This document shows, piece by piece, positions 3,582 to 59,203 of a DNA stretch of 64,000 nt. The stretch lies in the NCBI GenBank assembly GCA_003507395.1, contig DNVW01000016.1:12726-76725 (forward strand), in the 5' to 3' direction. Every line of letters starts with the position of its first letter. Positions within the stretch are counted from its first letter, which is position 1. The stretch is from Clostridiales bacterium (lineage in GTDB: Bacteria > Bacillota > Clostridia > TANB77 > CAG-508). The position numbers were made by a program, and so were the translations under genes. The notes under the pieces were generated by a model. The model made no database searches, was not told where the DNA came from, and saw only the letters and a program-made list of their open reading frames with translations.

Positions 3582-4745
3582 ATGAATTATAATATAACAA
3601 ACAAAATAGAATATATAGGAGTTAATGATAAAACATTAGATTTATTTGAAAGTCAATATAATCTTCCAAATGGGGTATCATATAATTCATATATACTTAA
3701 AGATAAGAAAACAGTAGTAATGGATACAGTCGACAAAAGAGTGACAAATGAATGGCTGGAAAATATAGAAACAACTTTAAATAAAAAAAATATAGATTAT
3801 TTAGTAATTTCACATTTAGAGCCAGATCATTCTGCTAATATACAATTATTAGCACAGAAATATCCAGAGATGAAAATCATACTAAATCAAAAAGCCGAAA
3901 GCATGATGAAGCAATTTTTTGATTTAGATTTATCTAATAGATATGTTATAGTAAAAGAAGGAGATATTATAGATACAGGAGAACATAAATTACAATTTTT
4001 TATGGCTCCTATGGTACATTGGCCAGAAGTAATGGTAACATATGAACAAACAGAAAAGATTTTGTTTAGTGCAGATGGATTTGGTAAGTTTGGAACTTTA
4101 GATACTGAGGAAGATTGGACAAATGAAGCAAGGAGATATTACTTTAATATTGTAGGAAAATATGGCACACAAGTTCAACAGTTGCTAAAAAAAGTTGTGG
4201 GGTTAGACATTAAAATGATATGCCCATTACATGGACCAATTCTTAAGGAAAATTTGAATTATTATATAAATAAATATGATACATGGAGTAGCTATAAACC
4301 AGAAGATGAAGGCATATTAGTAGCATATAATTCTATTCATGGAAACACCAGAAAAGCTGTAGAAGAATTAGAAAAAATGCTAAAAGAAAATGGTGTAAAA
4401 AAAGTAGTAGTAGGTGATTTATCAAGAAATGATATGTCAGAAATAATAGCAAATGCATTTAGATATGATAAATTAATTATTGCTTCTCCAACATATGATG
4501 CAGGATTATTTCCATCAACAGAAAAATTTTTAAGAAATTTAAAACATAAAAATTATCAAAATAGAAGAATAGGAATAATAGAAAATGGATCATGGGCACC
4601 AATGGCAGCCAAATGTATGAATGATATAATAAAAGAAATGAAAAATATAGAAACATGCAATACAACAGTTACAATAAAAACAAGAATGAATGATGAATCA
4701 AAGAAAAAGATGAAAGAACTTGTTAAAGAACTTTTAAATAAATAG
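3582..4745 (+). CDS. Flavodiiron protein (FprA-type; metallo-beta-lactamase fold plus flavodoxin domain)
   Basis: There is an HxExDH-type MBL motif (ISHLEPDHSAN) and a C-terminal flavodoxin-like domain. It lies adjacent to a rubredoxin gene. Confidence 0.8.
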   Translation: MNYNITNKIEYIGVNDKTLDLFESQYNLPNGVSYNSYILKDKKTVVMDTVDKRVTNEWLENIETTLNKKNIDYLVISHLEPDHSANIQLLAQKYPEMKIILNQKAESMMKQFFDLDLSNRYVIVKEGDIIDTGEHKLQFFMAPMVHWPEVMVTYEQTEKILFSADGFGKFGTLDTEEDWTNEARRYYFNIVGKYGTQVQQLLKKVVGLDIKMICPLHGPILKENLNYYINKYDTWSSYKPEDEGILVAYNSIHGNTRKAVEELEKMLKENGVKKVVVGDLSRNDMSEIIANAFRYDKLIIASPTYDAGLFPSTEKFLRNLKHKNYQNRRIGIIENGSWAPMAAKCMNDIIKEMKNIETCNTTVTIKTRMNDESKKKMKELVKELLNK

Positions 4746-23529: not shown

Positions 23530-23620
23530 AGATGTGAGAAATAAAAAAGTCCTAGCTAAACTGAAGTGATAAAATGAAAGTAGACACAAAAAGTCTGCTT
23601 TCATTTTTTTGTGCCAATAG

Positions 23621-23718
23621 GTGCCAATAGGGACGGGGAATTTTGGCACAAAAAATTTTAATTTAACAAAAAGCGAGTGAAAATGAAATTTCACTCGTTC
23701 TGGCGCAGATGGGCTTAA
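23621..23718. repeat. ~97-bp att-proximal repeat A. It consists of the GTGCCAATAGGGACGGGGAATTTTGGCAC hairpin, a CGAGTGAAA-ATGAAA-TTTCACTCG hairpin, and a degenerate tRNA-Leu 3' core (tggCgcagatgg at 23701-23712).
   Basis: It is ~96 percent identical to 29747-29844. It is preceded by a 10-bp tandem duplication, gtgccaatag x2. Confidence 0.7.
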
Positions 23719-23815
23719 ATTTTTACTCATCTTTTCTTACACCTTCAGGCTTTTTCAAATTTCGTATCTTTGTCCCGACATTGTCGGGAGATATTTTCTA
23801 TTCAATTATTTATTA

Positions 23816-24121
23816 TTATTCTACTTCGATTATCTTATTATTTTCTAGTAGTTTTTCATATTTCTCGTTCATCTTGTCCATATATTCTGTGTATTTATAC
23901 ATTTGTTTTTTCTGATGATAATCAAATATATCTCCATAAATATTAATTGTAGTTTGAATATTAGCATGTCCTAGAACTTTTTGCAATGTTGCTAAATCCA
24001 TACCAGCCTCAATACATCTAGTTGCAAAAGTATGCCTTAACATATGAACATGCACATCACTTGTCTTTTCATTTACATAGTGAACTCCTTTCGATTTAAG
24101 TTTGTTTTGTAAAGTTACCAT
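23816..24121 (-). pseudogene. Tyrosine recombinase/integrase, C-terminal ~100-codon remnant
   Basis: [41 protein letters not shown] aligns to the C-terminus of the integrase at 29979-31427. The N-terminal ~380 codons are missing. Confidence 0.75.
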
Positions 24122-29746: not shown

Positions 29747-29844
29747 TGCCAATAGGGACGGGGAATTTTGGCACAAAAATATTTTAATTTAACAAAAAGC
29801 GAGTGAAAATGAAATTTCACTCGTTCTGGTGCAGATGGACTTAA
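29747..29844. repeat. ~98-bp att-proximal repeat B (attR arm). It has the same two hairpins as repeat A and ends in a tRNA-Leu 3' core copy, tggtgcagatgg (29827-29838).
   Basis: The 12-bp core is identical to tRNA-Leu 3' end 41805-41816. Confidence 0.7.
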
Positions 29845-29894
29845 TAAAACTCCCATCTTTCTTAGTATTTCTCATAGATTTACAGCTTACCGTA

Positions 29895-29946
29895 TTTTTG
29901 GAACTTAGTTCCAAATTATTCTTATTAAATTTTTTAGTTCCAAATT
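29895..29946. repeat. TTTGGAAC / GTTCCAAATT 10-bp repeats (3 copies) just inside attR
   Basis: The same decamer recurs as direct repeats at 41645-41667, at the other end of the element. Confidence 0.45.
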
Positions 29947-29978
29947 TTCAATTTTATATCATATAAAATTCTATATTA

Positions 29979-31427
29979 TTATTTTAATTTTAAATATTCT
30001 TCTTCAAATCTTTCAAAGTTTTCTTCTAATATAGTATTTGTATCTTGCATATACTTTGTGTATTTTTGATTTAATTCCTTTTGTCTTAAATATGAGTAAA
30101 TATATCCATAAGTGTTTATAGTTGTAGTAATGTCTGCATGACCTAGAATTTTTTGTAATACTTCAATAGCAATTCCAGATTCTATACATCTTGTTGCAAA
30201 AGTATGCCTTAGCATATGAGTATGTGTATCACTTGATTTATAATTAACATAGTGTATTCCTTTTTTCTTACTAACTTTTTTATGTTTTAATGTTATAACT
30301 CTAAGTCCTGCATTTTTACATATTATTTTAAATGCTGAATTAACTTGTCCATCAGTATAAAAGTTGCCACTAGGTTTAGAAAATAATACATCATATTTAT
30401 TTTCTTTGTATTGTTCTAATGCTTTTTGTATCACTGGTACTGCTAAAGGTGTAAGATCTATTGTTCTTAATCCATTTTTAGTTTTAGTTATATCTCCAAT
30501 TACAACTTTATTGTTTATATCTTTTGTCAATGTTCTTCTAACATTAATGCTTCCAATATTTCCTACAATATTTATATCACTAGGTCTTAATGCAAGTATT
30601 TCTCCTATTCTCATTCCAGTATATAAAGCAATTAGTAATATTAGCTTATATTTTGATTTATGAGTTTTTAGATATTCTGTTAAAACATATTCTTCTTTTC
30701 TGGTAAAAGCATCAACCTTTTTATCTTCTTTAAAACTCTCTGGCTTTTTAATTCCCTCTCCAATTAAAAATGGATTTTTTTGAATAATACCATTTGCATA
30801 AGCAATAGAAAAAGCATTTTTAATTTTACTATAATATTTGTCTATTGAAGAATTAGATTTTGCTCGTTCACTTTCTAAATATTGTTTTATCTGGTTAGCT
30901 GTAACATTCTGTATTGGAATATTTGCGAATTTATAATTTCCAATTGCTTTTATAGTTTGCATATGCCTATTATAAGTGTTTGGTTTAATTTCCTTGTTTC
31001 TTACTCTTTTGGTTTCGTATGATTCACATATTGAAACAATAGTTGCATCTTTCTCTTTAGTTTTCTCAGTTTTCCCATGAATAGAAACATCTTGGATATA
31101 TTCAAGCATTTTATTTAAGGCTTCTTCTTTTGTTTTTCCATTAAATTGCATCCTATTTGTATCTTTTGTTGTGGATTTTCTGCCATTTGTTAAAAGCTCT
31201 ACTTTGAATTTGGGATAAATATAGAATTTATCGCAATGTTCTTTATCTTTACAATTATTGCAATCTTCACATTCTTTCATTTTGAATAGCTTTTTTCTAT
31301 TAGCACAAAATTCTTTGTGATTACAATTACTACAAGTAGGGCATATTGGTCTATCATTGGCTTTTCTTTTATCTTTAGTAGTATACTCGTGTACAGAATA
31401 GTCTTTGCCTTCAACTAAAGTTTTCAA
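29979..31427 (-). CDS. int: Tyrosine-type site-specific integrase with a Cys-rich N-terminal extension
   Basis: R..HxxR..Y catalytic region ([10 protein letters not shown] ... TINTYGYIY) and multiple CxxC motifs at the N-terminus. Confidence 0.85.
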   Translation of the reverse strand: MKTLVEGKDYSVHEYTTKDKRKANDRPICPTCSNCNHKEFCANRKKLFKMKECEDCNNCKDKEHCDKFYIYPKFKVELLTNGRKSTTKDTNRMQFNGKTKEEALNKMLEYIQDVSIHGKTEKTKEKDATIVSICESYETKRVRNKEIKPNTYNRHMQTIKAIGNYKFANIPIQNVTANQIKQYLESERAKSNSSIDKYYSKIKNAFSIAYANGIIQKNPFLIGEGIKKPESFKEDKKVDAFTRKEEYVLTEYLKTHKSKYKLILLIALYTGMRIGEILALRPSDINIVGNIGSINVRRTLTKDINNKVVIGDITKTKNGLRTIDLTPLAVPVIQKALEQYKENKYDVLFSKPSGNFYTDGQVNSAFKIICKNAGLRVITLKHKKVSKKKGIHYVNYKSSDTHTHMLRHTFATRCIESGIAIEVLQKILGHADITTTINTYGYIYSYLRQKELNQKYTKYMQDTNTILEENFERFEEEYLKLK

Positions 31428-41804: not shown

Positions 41805-41892
41805 TGGTGCAGATGGCCGGAATCGAACCGGCACGGTTTATTCAACCGCAGGATTTTAAGTCCTGTGCGTCTACCAGTTCCGCCACATCTGC
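41805..41892 (-). tRNA. tRNA-Leu (anticodon UAA) with a long variable arm and encoded CCA
   Basis: The reverse complement reads GCAGATGTGGCGGAACTGGTAGACGCACAGGACTTAAAATCCTGCGGTTGAATAAACCGTGCCGGTTCGATTCCGGCCATCTGCACCA. It has a 7-bp acceptor stem and a T-arm GGTTCGATTCC. Confidence 0.85.
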
Positions 41893-54592: not shown

Positions 54593-57202
54593 ATGGCTAT
54601 TGAAATTACAGAAGAAGAGAAAAACAGAATAAAAGAAATGATAGATAAACTGGTAGAAAAAGCCAAAATAGCTTCAGAAGAATATATGGATTTAACTCAA
54701 GAGCAAGTCGATAATATAGTAAAACAAATGGCAATGGCAGGATTGGAGCATCATATGGAGCTTGCGAAAATGGCAGTTGAAGAAACAAATAGAGGAATTT
54801 ATGAAGACAAAATAACTAAAAATATGTTTGCAACAGAATATATATATCATAGTATAAAATATGATAAAACTGTAGGTGTAATTAACGAAAATGAAGAAGA
54901 GGGTTATGTAGAAATAGCAGAACCTGTTGGAATTATTGCAGGTGTAACACCTGTTACAAACCCAACTTCAACTACAATGTTTAAATCGATAATTGCTGCT
55001 AAAACAAGAAATGTAATAATATTTGGTTTTCACCCATCAGCTCAAAAATGTAGTGTAGCAGCAGCTAAAATATTAAGAGATGCAGCAGTAGCAGCAGGGG
55101 CACCAGAAAATTGCATTTTATGGATAGAAGAACCATCTGTTACAGCAACAAATATGCTTATGCATCATCCAGATGTGAATTTAATATTGGCAACAGGTGG
55201 CACAGGAATGGTAAAAGCAGCATATTCTTGCGGAAAGCCAGCACTAGGAGTAGGACCAGGCAATGTGCCTTGTTATATAGATAAAACAGCAAATTTAAAA
55301 ACTTCTGTTAATGATTTAGTAATGTCAAAATCATTTGATAATGGAATGATATGTGCTTCTGAACAATCTGTCATAGTAGATAAAGAAATACATGAAGAAT
55401 TTGAAAGACTTATGAAAGAAGCAGGATGCTATTTTATGTCACAAGATGAAACAAATACTTTAAGAAATAGTATGTTTATAGAAGAAAAAGGTTGTGCATT
55501 AAATGCAGATATAGTAGGAAAAAGCCCATATCAAATAGCAAAAGGTGCAGGAATAGAAGTTCCAATAGATACAAAAGTATTAGTTCTTAAAGAAAACGGA
55601 ATTGGAATAGAATATCCATTCTCAAAAGAAAAGTTAAGCCCAGTCTTAGCATACTATATTGTAGAAAATGCAGATGAAGGAATAAACATAGCAGAAAGAC
55701 TTATAGAATTTGGTGGACTTGGACATTCTGCTGTTATTCATTCAGAGAATGAGCAAACAATATTAAAATTTTCAGAAAAAGTTAAAGTAGGAAGAATAAT
55801 AGTAAATTCTCCATCTACGCACGGAGCCATAGGAGATATATATAATACAAATATGCCATCATTAACATTAGGTTGTGGAACATTTGGAGGAAATTCAACA
55901 ACAGCAAATGTATCATCTGTTAATTTAATAAATATAAAAAGAGTTGCAAAAAGAAGGGTAAATATGCAGTGGTTTAAAGTTCCAGAAAAAATTTATTTTG
56001 AAGCAGGCTCTATAGGATATTTAGAAAAAATGCCAAATATAACAAGAGCATTCATAGTAACAGATGAATCAATGGTAAAACTGGGATATGTAGATAAAAT
56101 ATTATATTACTTAAGAAAAAGAAAAGAATATGTACATTCAGAAATTTTTGCAGATGTAGAATCAGACCCATCGTTTGAAACAATTAATAAAGGCGTAGAA
56201 ATGATGAATGAATTTAAGCCAGATGTAATAATTGCATTAGGTGGAGGAAGTCCAATAGATGCTGCAAAAGGAATGTGGTTATTTTATGAGCACCCAGAGG
56301 CAGATGTCGAAGGATTAAAACTTAAATTTATGGATATAAGGAAGAGAACATATAAATTTCCTAAATTAGGTAATAAAGCCAAAATGGTAGCAATACCTAC
56401 AACTTCAGGCACAGGCTCAGAAGTAACTTCGTTTGCAGTTATTACAGATAAAAAACTTAATAAAAAGTATCCATTAGCAGATTATGAATTAACACCAGAT
56501 GTAGCAATCGTAGATCCAGATTTAGTAATGAGTTTGCCTAAGGGAATAACAGCAGATACTGGTATGGATGTTTTAACACATGCTATAGAAGCATATGTTT
56601 CTAATATGGCATCAGATTACACAGATGGACTAGCAGAAAAAGCTTTTGAATTAGTATTCAAGAATTTAAGAGAAGCGTATAACAATGGAAGTAATAAAGT
56701 GGCAAGGGAAAAAATGCATAATGCAAGTACAATAGCAGGAATGGCATTTACAAATGCATTCTTAGGAATAAATCATTCGTTAGCACATAAAATAGGAGGA
56801 GAGTTTCACTTACCACATGGAAGAATAAATGCAATTCTTCTTCCTTATGTTATTAAGTACAATAGTCAAAAGCCGACAAAGTTTGTTTCATTCCCTAAAT
56901 ATGAATATTTTATTGCGGACCAAAAATACGCGGATTTATCAAGAAAAATGAACTTTCCAGCATATACAAATGAAGAAGGAGTATGGTCATTAATAAATGA
57001 AATAAAAAGATTAAATTCAGATTTAGGAATTCCATCAAATTTTAAGGATGCAGGTATAGATGAAAAAGAATTTTTGGACAAAGTAGATATGTTAGCAGAT
57101 AGAGCTTTTGAAGACCAATGTACAACAGCAAATCCAAGATTACCACTAGTAAGTGAGTTAAAGCAAATATTATTAGATAGCTATTATGGAAATAATATAT
57201 AA
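54593..57202 (+). CDS. adhE: Bifunctional acetaldehyde-CoA / alcohol dehydrogenase
   Basis: An 869-aa protein with an N-terminal ALDH domain and a C-terminal Fe-ADH domain ([10 protein letters not shown], HxxxH). Confidence 0.9.
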
Positions 57203-57211
57203 GCAAAAATA

Positions 57212-57313
57212 GTGCCAAAGGGGACGGGGAATTTTGGCACTATTTTATTGCAAAGGAAAAAGCAATTTAATTTTCAAAATGAAATGTGCCAAAATTCCCC
57301 GTCCCCTTTGGCA
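57212..57313. repeat. Structured repeat element with 27-bp perfect inverted-repeat arms (57214-57240 and 57286-57312), each arm itself hairpin-forming. It is a member of the GGGACGGGGAATTTTGGCAC family.
   Basis: gccaaaggggacggggaattttggcac is exactly the reverse complement of gtgccaaaattccccgtcccctttggc. It lies immediately 3' of adhE. Confidence 0.7.
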
Positions 57314-57400
57314 TAAATTAAACATTTTTTAGATATAACTTGAATTTTAGTAAAAAAATATATATAATATGTTTACATATTGAAAGGAACGTGAGTATAC

Positions 57401-57688
57401 ATGAAAGTTAGTAAAGAAGAATTATTACACATTGCAAATTTAGCAAGCTTAAATTTAAAAGATGAAGAGATAGATACATATTTACTACATCTTCAAGATA
57501 TTTTGAATTTTGCTAATATTGTAGGTAAAGCACCAGTAAGTGACATGGAAGAGACAATAGGAGTAAATGAAAATTGTAATATATTTAGAAAAGATGAAAT
57601 AAAACCATTTGAAGATATAGAAGCACTATTAAAAAATGCGCCAGAACAAGAGGCAAATATGTTTAAAATACCAAAGGTAATACAATAA
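57401..57688 (+). CDS. gatC: Glutamyl-tRNA(Gln) amidotransferase subunit C
   Basis: A 95-aa protein at the conserved position upstream of gatA. Confidence 0.85.
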   Translation: MKVSKEELLHIANLASLNLKDEEIDTYLLHLQDILNFANIVGKAPVSDMEETIGVNENCNIFRKDEIKPFEDIEALLKNAPEQEANMFKIPKVIQ

Positions 57689-57748: not shown

Positions 57749-59203
57749 ATGGATATTACAGAATTAACTGTGCATGAGTTAGTTGAAAAATTAAAAAGCA
57801 AAGAGCTTACAGTAACAGAAATAAACAAAGCATATATAGATAGAATAAATGACAGAGAAAAAGATGTACAAGCATTTATAACGCTATTAACAGAGGAGGC
57901 TTTAAAAGAAGCAGAGAGTATAGAAAAAAAAGAAAATTTATCTGAATTAGCGGGTATTCCAATAGGAATAAAAGACAATATATGTACAAAAAATATAAAA
58001 ACAACATGTGCTTCAAAAATGCTAGAAAATTTTGTATCACCATATGATGCAACAGTAATAGAAAAATTAGAAAGTAAAGGCATAATAAATTTGGGCAAAT
58101 TAAATTTAGACGAACTCGCAATGGGAGGTTCTACAGAGTACTCGGCTTTTAAAGTAACAAAAAACCCATGGAATTTAAAAAATGTTCCAGGTGGTTCTTC
58201 TGGTGGAAGTGCAGCAGCAGTTGCTGCTAATTTAGTACCTTGGGCATTGGGGTCAGATACAGGTGGTTCAATACGTCAGCCTGCATCATTTTGTGGAGTA
58301 GTGGGACTAAAACCAACATATGGATTGGTTTCAAGATATGGATTAGTAGCGTTTGCTTCATCTCTTGATCAAATAGGACCAATTACAAAAGATGTAAAAG
58401 ATGCAGCAATTTTATTAAATGTAATAGCAGGACATGATGAAAAAGATACAACCTCAGAAAAAATTAATGATAAAGATTATACAAAGTGCTTAAAAAATGA
58501 TGTTAAAGGATTAAAAATAGGTATACCAAAAGAATATTTTAGTGATGGAATAAATGTAGAGGTAAAAGCGAAGTTAGAAGAAACGATAGAAAAATATAGA
58601 CAATTAGGTGCAGAAGTAGAAGAATTTTCATTAAGTATTGCAGATTATGCTTTAGCAACTTACTATATAATAGCTTGTGCAGAAGCAAGCTCAAATTTAG
58701 GAAGATTTGATGGAATTCGTTATGGATATAGAACAAAGAATTTTTCAAATTTAAAAGATATATATAAAAATTCTAGAAGTGAGGCTTTTGGAAGTGAAGT
58801 AAAAAGGAGAATTATATTAGGTACATATGTACTTTCTTCTGGATATTATGATGCATATTATAAAAAAGCACAACAGGTTCGTACACTAGTACAAAAAGAA
58901 TTTAATGATGCATTTAAAAAATATGATATATTACTTACACCAACAGCACCAACAGCAGCATTTGAAATAGGTGCAAAATCAAATAATCCTTTAGAGATGT
59001 ATTTGGCAGATATATGTACAGTTCCAGTAAATATAGCAGGTCTTCCAGCAATATCTGTACCAGTGGGAGTAGATAATAATGGCATGCCAATAGGAATGCA
59101 ACTTATAGGAAATAAGTTTGAAGAAGAGAAAATATTAAATGCAGCATATACACTTGAACAAGAGATTAAATTTAGAGAAAATTATAAGCCTAATTTTAAA
59201 TAA
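57749..59203 (+). CDS. gatA: Glutamyl-tRNA(Gln) amidotransferase subunit A
   Basis: Amidase signature [12 protein letters not shown]. Confidence 0.9.

What the first reader, a model, noticed from the sequence alone, without database searches (positions are those of the whole stretch)
57212..57313. Perfect 27-bp inverted repeat (cruciform/long hairpin) between adhE and gatCAB
Arms 57214-57240 and 57286-57312 are exact reverse complements, separated by 45 bp that contains a smaller palindrome (attgc...gcaat). Each arm is itself a hairpin. The RNA would fold into a ~100-nt stem. It could be a strong terminator or insulator for the highly expressed adhE, a transcript-stabilising 3' structure, or a miniature inverted-repeat mobile element.
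Basis: seen in the sequence. Interest (0 to 1): 0.55.

Follow-up and report, generated by a model that had tools for sequence, protein, structure and literature searches.

The report
REP doublet (REPIN) downstream of adhE
The perfect 101-bp hairpin between adhE and gatC is two inverted copies of a short palindromic repeat that is scattered through the genomes of a group of uncultured gut Clostridia and also flanks a small REP-type (RAYT-like) transposase gene, so it is a known kind of miniature mobile element and not a purpose-built regulatory structure.

Summary
Arms 57213-57240 and 57286-57313 are 28/28 complementary with a 45-nt spacer, and each arm is itself a hairpin.

The arm is a dispersed repeat, R-TGCCAA-NN-GGGACGGGGAATTTTGGCA-CA.
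- It has 4 copies in this window and 81 copies in the window plus 47 loci from 14 gut Clostridia MAGs.
- 76 of the 81 copies lie outside long ORFs.
- Similarity between copies starts exactly at the outer TGCC and runs inward.

Inverted pairs bound elements of about 101, 235 and 850-861 bp. The largest encodes a 226-aa HUH/Y1 transposase of the REP-associated (RAYT) type. The window's own species (close to Clostridium sp. CAG:798) carries this REP-RAYT-REP unit, and its right REP is identical to both arms here.

The element is therefore a REP doublet (REPIN/BIME type), a non-autonomous relative of that unit. It is fixed at this site in 22 of 23 sampled strains; the 23rd contig breaks in an IS there.

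A role as adhE terminator or 3' stabiliser is plausible. It starts 10 nt after the stop codon, has a U-rich tail, and lies upstream of a gatC promoter-like site. That role is untested and is not a general property of the family. This is a new member of a known kind, of modest interest.

The parts
57213..57313 (.). The whole 101-bp element: an inverted REP doublet (REPIN/BIME-like), left REP + 45-nt spacer + right REP
   Evidence: Similarity to doublets in other genomes begins and ends exactly at these outer bases.
57213..57240 (+). Left REP copy, TGCCAAAGGGGACGGGGAATTTTGGCAC (variable positions 7-8 = AG)
   Evidence: It is identical to the right-hand REP that flanks the RAYT gene in the same species (L089-L096).
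57241..57285 (.). Spacer; not conserved between doublets of different genomes, and its small palindrome is at chance level
57286..57313 (-). Right REP copy, an exact reverse complement of the left one
57206..57246 (+). Extended first hairpin (AAAATAGTGCCAAA...TTTGGCACTATTTT) followed by a U-rich run; candidate adhE terminator or 3'-end protector
   Evidence: Inverted repeat I2. RNA fold of 57203-57252 is -20.5 kcal/mol, z -6.7. The terminator scan did not call it because the loop is 11 nt and the scan allows 3-8. The function is inferred.
54593..57202 (+). adhE; its stop codon (57200-57202) is 10 nt upstream of the element
57340..57368 (+). Sigma-70-like promoter match (TTGAAT-17-TATAAT, 10/12) between the element and gatC
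   Evidence: a consensus match only
57401..57688 (+). gatC, the first gene of gatCAB
23622..23649 (+). Another REP copy (positions 7-8 = TA), preceded by a partial tandem duplicate of its first 11 nt at 23611-23621. It lies at the outer edge of a segment that holds a tyrosine-recombinase gene fragment (23816-24121, minus strand).
29747..29774 (+). Another REP copy (TA), at the outer edge of a segment that holds a complete 482-aa tyrosine-recombinase gene (29979-31427, minus strand)

Best explanation
The element is a REP doublet (REPIN, or BIME in the older name). It consists of two inverted copies of a 28-nt repetitive extragenic palindrome separated by a non-conserved 45-nt spacer.

The REP family is R-TGCCAA-NN-GGGACGGGGAATTTTGGCA-CA: a 7-8-bp stem with a conserved G-rich loop, in a genome of 27% G+C. 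It is dispersed through the extragenic space of a clade of uncultured gut Clostridia. It also forms the two inverted ends of an 850-861-bp unit that encodes a 226-aa HUH/Y1 single-strand DNA transposase of the REP-associated (RAYT, TnpA_REP) type.

Shown here:
- The family exists, and its copies have sharp outer boundaries.
- Close opposite-strand pairs always face each other.
- There is a size series of 101, 235 and 850-861 bp with shared ends.
- The window's own species has the RAYT unit.

Inferred from what is known of TnpA_REP and IS200/IS608 TnpA: the RAYT binds the REP hairpin on single-stranded DNA and cuts and rejoins at its foot. That is how REP-bounded pieces, including this doublet, were placed in new extragenic sites without a target duplication.

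At this site the insertion is old enough to be fixed in the species. As a by-product, its first hairpin plus U-rich tail probably ends or protects the adhE transcript upstream of the gatC promoter. This last step is inference only.
For: Repeat family: 4 copies in the window against 0 expected. 81 copies in the window plus 47 loci from 14 MAG assemblies. Only 5 of the 81 overlap ORFs of at least 120 aa, although 79% of bases lie in such ORFs.

Boundaries: in all-against-all BLAST, similarity between copies starts at motif position 0 (typically 0 to -5) and runs inward for 101, about 135-140, 175, 235 or 849 nt. The 5' flanks are unrelated.

Architecture: 11 of the 12 opposite-strand pairs lying within 1 kb face each other. 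Spacings are 71-76, 205-207 and 822 nt.

Transposase: L019:4907-5587 matches Pfam Y1_Tnp at 2.3e-12. It matches NCBIfam REP_Tyr_transpos at 78.9 bits against 23.9 bits for the IS200 model. A profile search of the PDB has E. coli TnpA_REP (4ER8) as best hit, with the HUH and YIYxNPVK motifs aligned. H60, H62 and Y120-x3-N124-P125 are invariant in 16 homologues, matching the class-2 signature Y---NP (PMC6006769). The 235-bp elements keep the last 24 RAYT codons, so they are deletion derivatives.

Same species: RAYT P0286 lies on contig ERZ13688274:opera_contig_308509 of 1,162,649 bp, which is the length of the longest contig carrying the window's exact GatC. RAYT P0285 has a longest contig of 1,458,522 bp, which is the length of ERZ13690501:opera_contig_211885, the contig that carries adhE-doublet-gatC (L074). 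These RAYT genes are flanked by inverted REPs, and the right one is identical to the window arms. One source names P0282 'REP element-mobilizing transposase RayT'.

Mobility of the parent unit: REP-to-REP similarity of 95.4% and 98.4% between three unrelated contexts, with nothing shared outside the unit.

Fit to the definition: REPINs are about 100 bp, two inverted REPs each with a short palindrome, with a variable spacer and conserved arms (Bertels and Rainey, 10.1101/2021.07.10.451892; compare).
Against: - No transposition event or empty site was seen for this doublet. It is present wherever the site could be read.
- Short doublets are few. I found about one locus per species, and their spacers are unrelated. 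The classical picture of hundreds of doublets replicating as units is therefore not shown. Most copies are singlets or ends of larger pieces.
- The RAYT scores 1-4 bits below NCBIfam's trusted cut-off.
- The RAYT unit behaves more like an insertion sequence than a domesticated single-copy RAYT. It sits in several contexts, there are sometimes two copies per contig, and it is 95% identical between species.
- The genome-wide copy number in the window's own genome is unknown.
- The terminator role is unsupported by the consensus scan and by family-wide statistics.
Confidence: 0.85

Rival explanations
1. It is a dedicated, locally evolved adhE terminator/insulator or mRNA-stabilising hairpin with no mobile origin.
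For: The element starts 10 nt after the adhE stop. The first hairpin is extended by an A-tract/U-tract pairing and followed by UAUUUUAUU. No other terminator-like structure lies in the 198-nt gap. A promoter-like site for gatC follows. Relatives have an ordinary terminator hairpin at the equivalent place upstream of gatC. The element is conserved wherever the site could be read in the species.
Against: The same 28-mer occurs at dozens of unrelated extragenic sites in at least 14 MAG assemblies, with sharp boundaries. It also forms both ends of a transposase-bearing unit. The terminator scan calls nothing. REP copies show no preference for gene 3' ends or for one orientation. A local origin cannot explain identity to the RAYT-flanking REP.
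Confidence: 0.05
2. It is a classical MITE: an internally deleted DDE-type insertion sequence with terminal inverted repeats, moved by cut-and-paste with a target-site duplication.
For: It has perfect 28-bp inverted termini, is small, lies between genes, and shares its ends with larger elements.
Against: No direct repeat flanks this doublet or the others (flank table; alignments). The larger element with the same ends encodes a Y1/HUH enzyme, not a DDE enzyme. Each terminus is itself a hairpin, as in REPs. The one DDE (rve) IS seen at this locus (L080) is inserted into the element and has different ends.
Confidence: 0.03
3. The 28-mer is a recombination (att-like) site for the tyrosine recombinases seen nearby, and the doublet is a pair of such sites.
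For: Two of the four window copies lie about 200 nt beyond the 3' ends of tyrosine-recombinase genes, at the exact edge of a repeated segment. A 38%-identical homologue of that recombinase lies 154 nt from a REP in L092. The stem-loop has the inverted half-site layout of a core site.
Against: tblastn with the recombinase found no homologue in any of the 50 loci retrieved by the motif. In L092 the island junction is 45 nt beyond the REP, not in it. No recombinase gene lies next to the adhE-gatC doublet. The 11-13-nt gap between half-sites is long for a tyrosine-recombinase core (my knowledge).
Confidence: 0.05
4. It is a fossil: a REP doublet by descent that is no longer mobile and has no role, kept only because nothing removes it.
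For: It is fixed at one site wherever the site could be read, with no insertion polymorphism seen. No second copy with the same spacer was found.
Against: The arms are still 28/28 identical, and the only variants are small duplications. This argues for recent origin, homogenisation or constraint. The cognate RAYT in the species is intact, with its catalytic motifs.
Confidence: 0.07

Closest known systems
REPIN-RAYT systems (Pseudomonas fluorescens SBW25) and E. coli REP/BIME with TnpA_REP (REPtron)
   Same: About 100 bp; two inverted REPs, each with a short palindrome; conserved arms and a variable spacer; extragenic; the same REPs flank a Y1/HUH transposase gene that has the Y---NP motif and whose best PDB match is 4ER8 (10.1101/2021.07.10.451892; PMC6006769).
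   Different: The host is an AT-rich Firmicute (27% G+C). The conserved part is the G-rich loop, and no GTAG- or CGTC-type 5' tag is present (base table). Few doublets were seen and many singlets. The RAYT unit is multi-context, sometimes duplicated, and 95% identical between species, so it is IS-like and not a single-copy, vertically inherited gene. The RAYT has a C-terminal extension of about 80 aa that the 146-position RAYT model does not cover.
IS200/IS605-family insertion sequences and their miniature derivatives (PATEs)
   Same: Y1/HUH transposase; hairpins at the element ends; no target duplication; short non-autonomous derivatives share the ends.
   Different: The IS200 model scores only 22-24 bits against a cut-off of 55. 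The ends here are an inverted pair of the same hairpin. In IS200/IS605 the left and right end hairpins lie on the same strand (my knowledge of IS608).
Group 1 RAYTs of Bertels, Gallie and Rainey 2017
   Same: That paper reports Group 1 in Clostridia, with the highest duplication rate among true RAYT groups, some plasmid carriage and only moderately repeated flanking 16-mers (PMC5581495). This matches the IS-like behaviour seen here.
   Different: Group membership was not tested here because I had no reference sequences of the groups.
Correia elements (Neisseria) and BOX/RUP (Streptococcus pneumoniae) intergenic repeats
   Same: Short, dispersed intergenic inverted-repeat elements that can affect transcript ends (my knowledge).
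   Different: Those have DDE-type or unknown mobilisers and target duplications (Correia: TA). Here there is no duplication and the partner is a Y1 enzyme.

Membership tests
REPIN / BIME (REP doublet) | [quoted passage not shown] | tested here: met
   28-nt arms, 45-nt spacer, 101 bp
REPIN / BIME (REP doublet) | Each REP contains its own short palindrome (hairpin) | tested here: met
   7-8-bp stem with an 11-13-nt loop in each arm, as RNA and as DNA, z -3.2 to -4.6
REPIN / BIME (REP doublet) | The REP is repeated in the genome and is extragenic | tested here: met
   4 copies in 64 kb against 0 expected. 81 copies in the window plus 47 loci, 76 of them outside ORFs of at least 120 aa, where 79% of bases are in such ORFs. 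The genome-wide count for the window's own genome was not obtainable.
REPIN / BIME (REP doublet) | Arms conserved and spacer variable between family members | tested here: met
   Alignment of doublets from four genomes: arms invariant, spacers unalignable, spacing 71-76 nt
REPIN / BIME (REP doublet) | A RAYT gene flanked by the same REP in the same genome | tested here: met
   L089-L096 have REP(+), RAYT, REP(-), and the right REP is identical to the window arms.
REPIN / BIME (REP doublet) | Doublets form a multi-copy population that replicates as units | tested here: inconclusive
   Only about one short-doublet locus per species was found in the sampled loci and in the metagenome scan. The two arms of each short doublet share the variable positions 7-8, which suggests origin as a unit. 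No whole genome was available.
RAYT (TnpA_REP, class 2 Y1 transposases) | HUH motif and catalytic Tyr in a Y---NP motif | tested here: met
   H60-x-H62 and Y120-IYD-N124-P125 are invariant in 16 homologues and align with the same motifs of 4ER8. The signature is from PMC6006769.
RAYT (TnpA_REP, class 2 Y1 transposases) | Passes the curated family model | tested here: inconclusive
   NCBIfam NF047646 REP_Tyr_transpos: 75.5-78.9 bits over the full model, against a cut-off of 80. The IS200 model scores 22-24 bits against 55. Pfam Y1_Tnp scores 47.5 bits against 23.
RAYT (TnpA_REP, class 2 Y1 transposases) | Single copy, fixed chromosomal position, vertical inheritance (a 'domesticated' transposase) | tested here: not met
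   The same 861-bp unit is found after rplL (L061), near aspS (L089, L096) and next to Mob_Pre cargo (L093). Two copies occur on one contig (L067/68, L094/95). Identity is 95-98% and confined to REP-to-REP.
Classical MITE (DDE-type) | Target-site duplication flanking the inverted termini | tested here: not met
   No direct repeat at the borders of this or the other doublets
Classical MITE (DDE-type) | Parent insertion sequence with the same termini that encodes a DDE transposase | tested here: not met
   The element with the same termini encodes a Y1/HUH protein
Intrinsic (rho-independent) terminator | G+C-rich stem, short loop, then a U run directly after the stem | tested here: inconclusive
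   The consensus scan found 0 sites in 56900-57500 (it allows loops of 3-8 nt). By eye there is an 11-14-bp stem with an 11-nt loop followed by UAUUUUAUU. No transcript data are available.
Known RNA families (Rfam) | Match at the gathering score | tested here: not met
   Nothing at gathering thresholds. Below threshold there were only generic long-hairpin families such as miRNA precursors.

The most novel reading that the evidence does not exclude
In these gut Clostridia the REP-RAYT-REP unit is still an autonomous insertion sequence that moves between species, perhaps riding on mobilisable elements with Mob_Pre. At the same time it sheds REP singlets, 235-bp deletion derivatives and 101-bp doublets. 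That would be a living intermediate between IS200-type elements and the domesticated, single-copy REPIN-RAYT systems of Proteobacteria. The REP copies may also serve as landing or border sites for a family of zinc-ribbon tyrosine-recombinase islands.
Probability: 0.3. Interest if true: 0.55.

Novelty: new member of a known kind. Interest (0 to 1): 0.3.

Why it matters
It replaces a tempting reading, a special regulatory hairpin for a highly expressed gene, with a general one.

- This clade of abundant but uncultured gut Clostridia carries a REP/RAYT repeat system. That explains many perfect palindromes, G+C-rich islands in AT-rich intergenic DNA, and contig breaks in their metagenome assemblies.
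- REPIN-RAYT systems have been studied almost only in Proteobacteria. A Firmicute example whose RAYT unit still looks mobile could help test how such systems arise from insertion sequences.
- For this locus, the practical point is that any effect on adhE/gatCAB expression is a side effect of an inserted repeat and needs direct measurement.

Tried and rejected
1. Tyrosine-recombinase link. Two window copies border integrase-bearing segments. tblastn found no integrase homologue in the 50 motif-retrieved loci. In L092 the island junction lies 45 nt past the REP. I kept this only as a side observation.

2. Integron-like cassette array. L040 shows gene / 235-bp repeat / gene / 235-bp repeat. I rejected this because the conserved part is the repeat's interior, it carries the RAYT 3' end, and there is no integrase.

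3. IS3-like two-ORF element in L027/L040. The ORFs are a sigma factor and an anti-sigma factor, not a transposase.

4. Rfam. Nothing at gathering scores, and only generic hairpin hits below threshold.

5. PDB search with the single RAYT sequence found nothing. A 16-sequence profile was needed to reach 4ER8.

6. Empty-site search.
   - 23 loci of the species were examined; 22 are occupied and L080 is cut by an IS.
   - Four GatC relatives at 76-80% identity have uvrC or other genes upstream instead of adhE, an ordinary terminator and no REP.
   - No true empty site was obtained.

7. Phage carriage. One match in the viral collection.

8. Preference for gene 3' ends or for one orientation. A rough ORF-based count showed none.

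9. Three of the 50 genome hits (L034 Chloroflexi, L045 Bacteroidaceae, L056 Jingyaoa) match only the degenerate search pattern and lack the full motif, so they are chance matches.

10. The genome scan returned exactly 50 stretches and may have been capped. Counts per genome are therefore lower bounds, and the window's own contig was not among them.

Full report
**The observation**

The sequence is as described. The repeat finder gives arms 57213-57240 and 57286-57313, 28 nt, 100% complementary, 45 nt apart. The region folds into one long stem of -64.5 kcal/mol as RNA, z = -10.4, with none of 200 shuffles as stable. As single-stranded DNA it reaches -42 to -43 kcal/mol on either strand.

Each arm is itself a hairpin. 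TGCCAAA pairs with TTTGGCA around an 11-13-nt G-rich loop. The inner attgc/gcaat palindrome (57247-57251 and 57262-57266) exists, but the spacer folds no better than shuffled sequence.

The neighbours are confirmed: AdhE (54593-57202), GatC (57401-57688) and GatA (57749-59203). The element begins 10 nt after the adhE stop codon. A TTGAAT-17-TATAAT match at 57340-57368 lies between it and gatC.

**The arm is a dispersed repeat**

The 28-mer occurs four times in the window with up to 3 mismatches, against 0.00 expected. Besides the two arms there are copies at 23622-23649 and 29747-29774.

A scan of one genome per species with GCCAANNGGGACGGGGAANNNTGGC returned 50 stretches. 47 of them carry the full motif, and they come from 14 assemblies of uncultured gut Clostridia: Clostridium sp. 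CAG:452, Clostridiales W1P7.002 and W1P7.012, HGM13686, several Hadza MAGs and others.

In the window plus these loci I counted 81 copies.
- The consensus is R-TGCCAA-NN-GGGACGGGGAATTTTGGCA-C-A. Positions 7-8 are variable and the rest is nearly invariant.
- Only 5 of the 81 overlap ORFs of at least 120 aa, although 79% of the bases lie in such ORFs.
- The window has 27% G+C, so these are G+C-rich islands in AT-rich spacers.

**The copies are the outermost ends of something**

When all copies are oriented by the loop, the 5' flanks are unrelated. The 3' sides fall into about a dozen families of conserved sequence.

In all-against-all BLAST, similarity nearly always starts at motif position 0. 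It runs inward for discrete lengths: 101 nt (this element and doublets in L015, L037/L046 and L060), about 135-140 nt, 175 nt, about 235 nt (three copies in L040, one in L019) and 849 nt (L019, L026, L031).

Of the 12 opposite-strand pairs lying within 1 kb, 11 face each other. Spacings are 71-76, 205-207 or 822 nt.

**The 849-bp element encodes a RAYT-type transposase**

L019:4771-5619 holds one ORF of 226 aa.
- It matches Pfam Y1_Tnp (2.3e-12).
- It matches the NCBIfam model for REP-associated tyrosine transposases (78.9 bits over the whole model, cut-off 80), far better than the IS200 model (23.9 bits, cut-off 55).
- A profile of 16 homologues has E. coli TnpA_REP (4ER8) as its best PDB match (E = 0.005). 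The HUH motif and YIYxNPVK are aligned.
- H60, H62 and Y120-x3-N124-P125 are invariant. Y---NP is the signature given for class-2 (TnpA_REP) enzymes in PMC6006769.

Homologues flanked by the motif occur in L019, L026, L031, L042, L024, L041 and L059. The 235-bp elements retain the last 24 codons of the gene, so they are internal-deletion derivatives. The protein family is large, with 1508 database proteins at E <= 1e-10, many on very short contigs.

**The window's own species has the transposase**

The window's GatC is identical to proteins of unnamed Clostridia MAGs. It clusters at 90% identity with that of Clostridium sp. CAG:798.

A RAYT cluster contains three relevant proteins.
- P0282 is from Clostridium sp. 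CAG:798. One source names it 'REP element-mobilizing transposase RayT', and it is seen on 614 contigs.
- P0285 has a longest contig of 1,458,522 bp.
- P0286 has a longest contig of 1,162,649 bp.

The first length is that of ERZ13690501:opera_contig_211885, which carries adhE-doublet-gatC (L074). The second is that of ERZ13688274:opera_contig_308509, which carries P0286 (L096). It is also the length of the longest contig that carries the window's exact GatC.

I take this as showing that RAYT and this doublet share a genome. It is an inference from two exact length coincidences, not a read-through sequence.

In L089-L096 the gene (4001-4681) is flanked by REP(+) at 3853-3879 and REP(-) at 4687-4713. 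The latter is identical to both window arms.

**Fit to the known kind**

Bertels and Rainey (10.1101/2021.07.10.451892) describe REPINs as about 100 bp, extragenic, made of two inverted REPs each defined by a short palindrome, with a variable spacer and conserved arms, and mobilised by a RAYT. PMC6006769 calls the REP-flanked RAYT gene a REPtron. The present element matches each structural point.

In each of the four short doublets the two arms share the variable positions 7-8 (AG/AG, AG/AG, TG/TG, TA/TA). The two REPs around RAYT and in the 235-bp elements differ at those positions. This fits an origin of each short doublet as a unit, or homogenisation within its hairpin.

**Where it departs from the textbook**

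First, short doublets are few. I found roughly one locus per species, including in the metagenome scan. That scan returned three further adhE-gatC loci and two other doublet types. A multi-copy doublet population is therefore not shown.

Second, the RAYT unit does not look domesticated.
- The 861-bp REP-to-REP unit is 95.4% identical between L089 (near aspS, window species) and L061 (after rplL, W1P7.002).
- It is 98.4% identical to L093 (next to DUF6076/DUF3800/Mob_Pre genes).
- Similarity ends at the outer REP bases.
- Two copies can sit on one contig (L067/68, L094/95).

This resembles what PMC5581495 reports for Group 1 RAYTs, which occur in Clostridia and are the most IS-like of the true RAYT groups. 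Group membership was not tested here.

Third, there is no GTAG/CGTC-type tag. The conserved part is the loop.

**State of this particular insertion**

All ten strains with the window's exact GatC have the doublet. So do nine of ten with the CAG:798-type GatC and three JGI metagenome contigs. In the tenth CAG:798-type locus (L080) the contig breaks inside an rve-type IS inserted at the right REP end. L073 keeps a 24-nt footprint of that IS end.

The other variants are tandem duplications of 10, 12 or 22 nt of an arm. The same kind of partial duplication of the first 9-18 nt recurs at many other copies, including window 23611-23621. I have no tested explanation. Slippage at the hairpin, or imprecise cutting and rejoining by the RAYT, are the obvious candidates.

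Relatives with 76-80% identical GatC have uvrC or other genes upstream, an ordinary terminator hairpin and no REP. A true empty site was therefore not found.

**Likely mechanism and local effect**

I infer the mechanism by homology with TnpA_REP and IS608 TnpA, from my own knowledge and PMC6006769. The RAYT binds the REP hairpin on single-stranded DNA and cuts and rejoins at its foot. This moves REP-bounded DNA without a target duplication. That is consistent with the absence of flanking direct repeats, but it was not tested.

At this locus the first REP with its flanks makes a -20.5 kcal/mol hairpin followed by UAUUUUAUU. It is the only strong structure between the adhE stop and the gatC promoter-like site. 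It probably ends or protects the adhE transcript, and the full stem would form on any read-through. The terminator scan does not call it because its loop is too long for the rule. Across the family there is no preference for 3' ends or for one orientation. I therefore regard this as a by-product of the insertion, with about even odds that it is functionally important.

**Verdict**

It is a new member of a known kind.

Interest is modest. The more interesting thread is the IS-like, apparently horizontally moving RAYT unit in a Firmicute clade.

Noticed in passing
window 23611-24121 and 29747-31427: Two REP copies in direct orientation, 6.1 kb apart. Each begins a repeated segment made of the REP, about 75 nt of 88%-identical sequence that includes a minus-strand terminator hairpin (GCGAGTGAAA...TTTCACTCG), and then a tyrosine-recombinase gene on the minus strand. 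The gene at 29979-31427 is complete (482 aa, Cys-rich N-terminus). The one at 23816-24121 is a 101-aa fragment. This looks like two tandem integrative elements whose border is a REP. No matching REP closes the second element.
   Followed up: partly
L092 4687-6198 (same species, RAYT locus): A 443-aa homologue of the window's recombinase (38% identity, same Cys-rich N-terminus) lies 154 nt outside the REP that flanks RAYT. Compared with L089, the island junction is 45 nt past the REP. This recombinase family may prefer REP-rich spots, but the junction is not in the REP.
   Followed up: partly
L080 1-480 and L073 (adhE-gatC locus of other strains): An IS with an rve (DDE) integrase domain is inserted at the right end of the doublet in L080. 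L073 keeps a 24-nt footprint of the same IS end (TATATGTTTGACAAACCTACAGCA). REPs are known IS targets in other bacteria.
   Followed up: partly
window 23611-23621; L001/L006/L071 left arm; L002, L008, L103 right arm; many loci: Recurrent partial tandem duplication of the first 9-22 nt of the REP at its outer border. The duplication copies the variable positions 7-8, so it arises locally. It is triple in L051. The cause is unknown.
   Followed up: no
L061 vs L089 vs L093; L067/L068; L094/L095: The 861-bp REP-RAYT-REP unit is 95-98% identical in unrelated contexts and in two species, and is sometimes duplicated with cargo between the copies. In L093-L095 it sits beside DUF6076, DUF3800 and Mob_Pre genes, which suggests carriage on a mobilisable element.
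   Followed up: partly
L089 956-2088: A 1.1-kb segment bounded by facing REPs holds a peptidase S51 gene instead of a RAYT. The aspS-to-DUF2207 interval differs between strains (L089 vs L096) in what lies between REPs.
   Followed up: no
L019+L040 (contig CAKOVK010000013.1, 1-16000): Eleven REP copies in 16 kb. Three 235-bp RAYT-deletion elements occur at a period of about 1.4 kb, separated by single genes (VanZ-like, TraX-like). This resembles a cassette array but has no integrase.
   Followed up: partly
L018 207-413 and 3556-3730; window tRNA-Leu 41805-41892: In a related MAG a REP lies 91 nt downstream of tRNA-Leu(UAA). The block of the last 57 nt of the tRNA + 91 nt + REP (175 nt, 98.9% identical) is repeated 3.3 kb away, like the att duplication of a small island whose repeat ends exactly at the REP's outer base. 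The window's tRNA-Leu has no REP next to it.
   Followed up: no
L011, L012, L028, L035, L039, L047, L050, L055 (W1P7.002/012): A 135-140-nt element family has the REP at one end. Its other end has a different, REP-like G-rich inverted motif (AAGTCCCCGTGTCTTAACGTGTCCCCTTGT). This may be a second REP type paired with the first.
   Followed up: no
L081-L088, upstream of gatC: In relatives with 76-80% identical GatC the upstream gene is uvrC or a gene with no Pfam match. adhE therefore appears to have been placed next to gatCAB only in the window's lineage.
   Followed up: no
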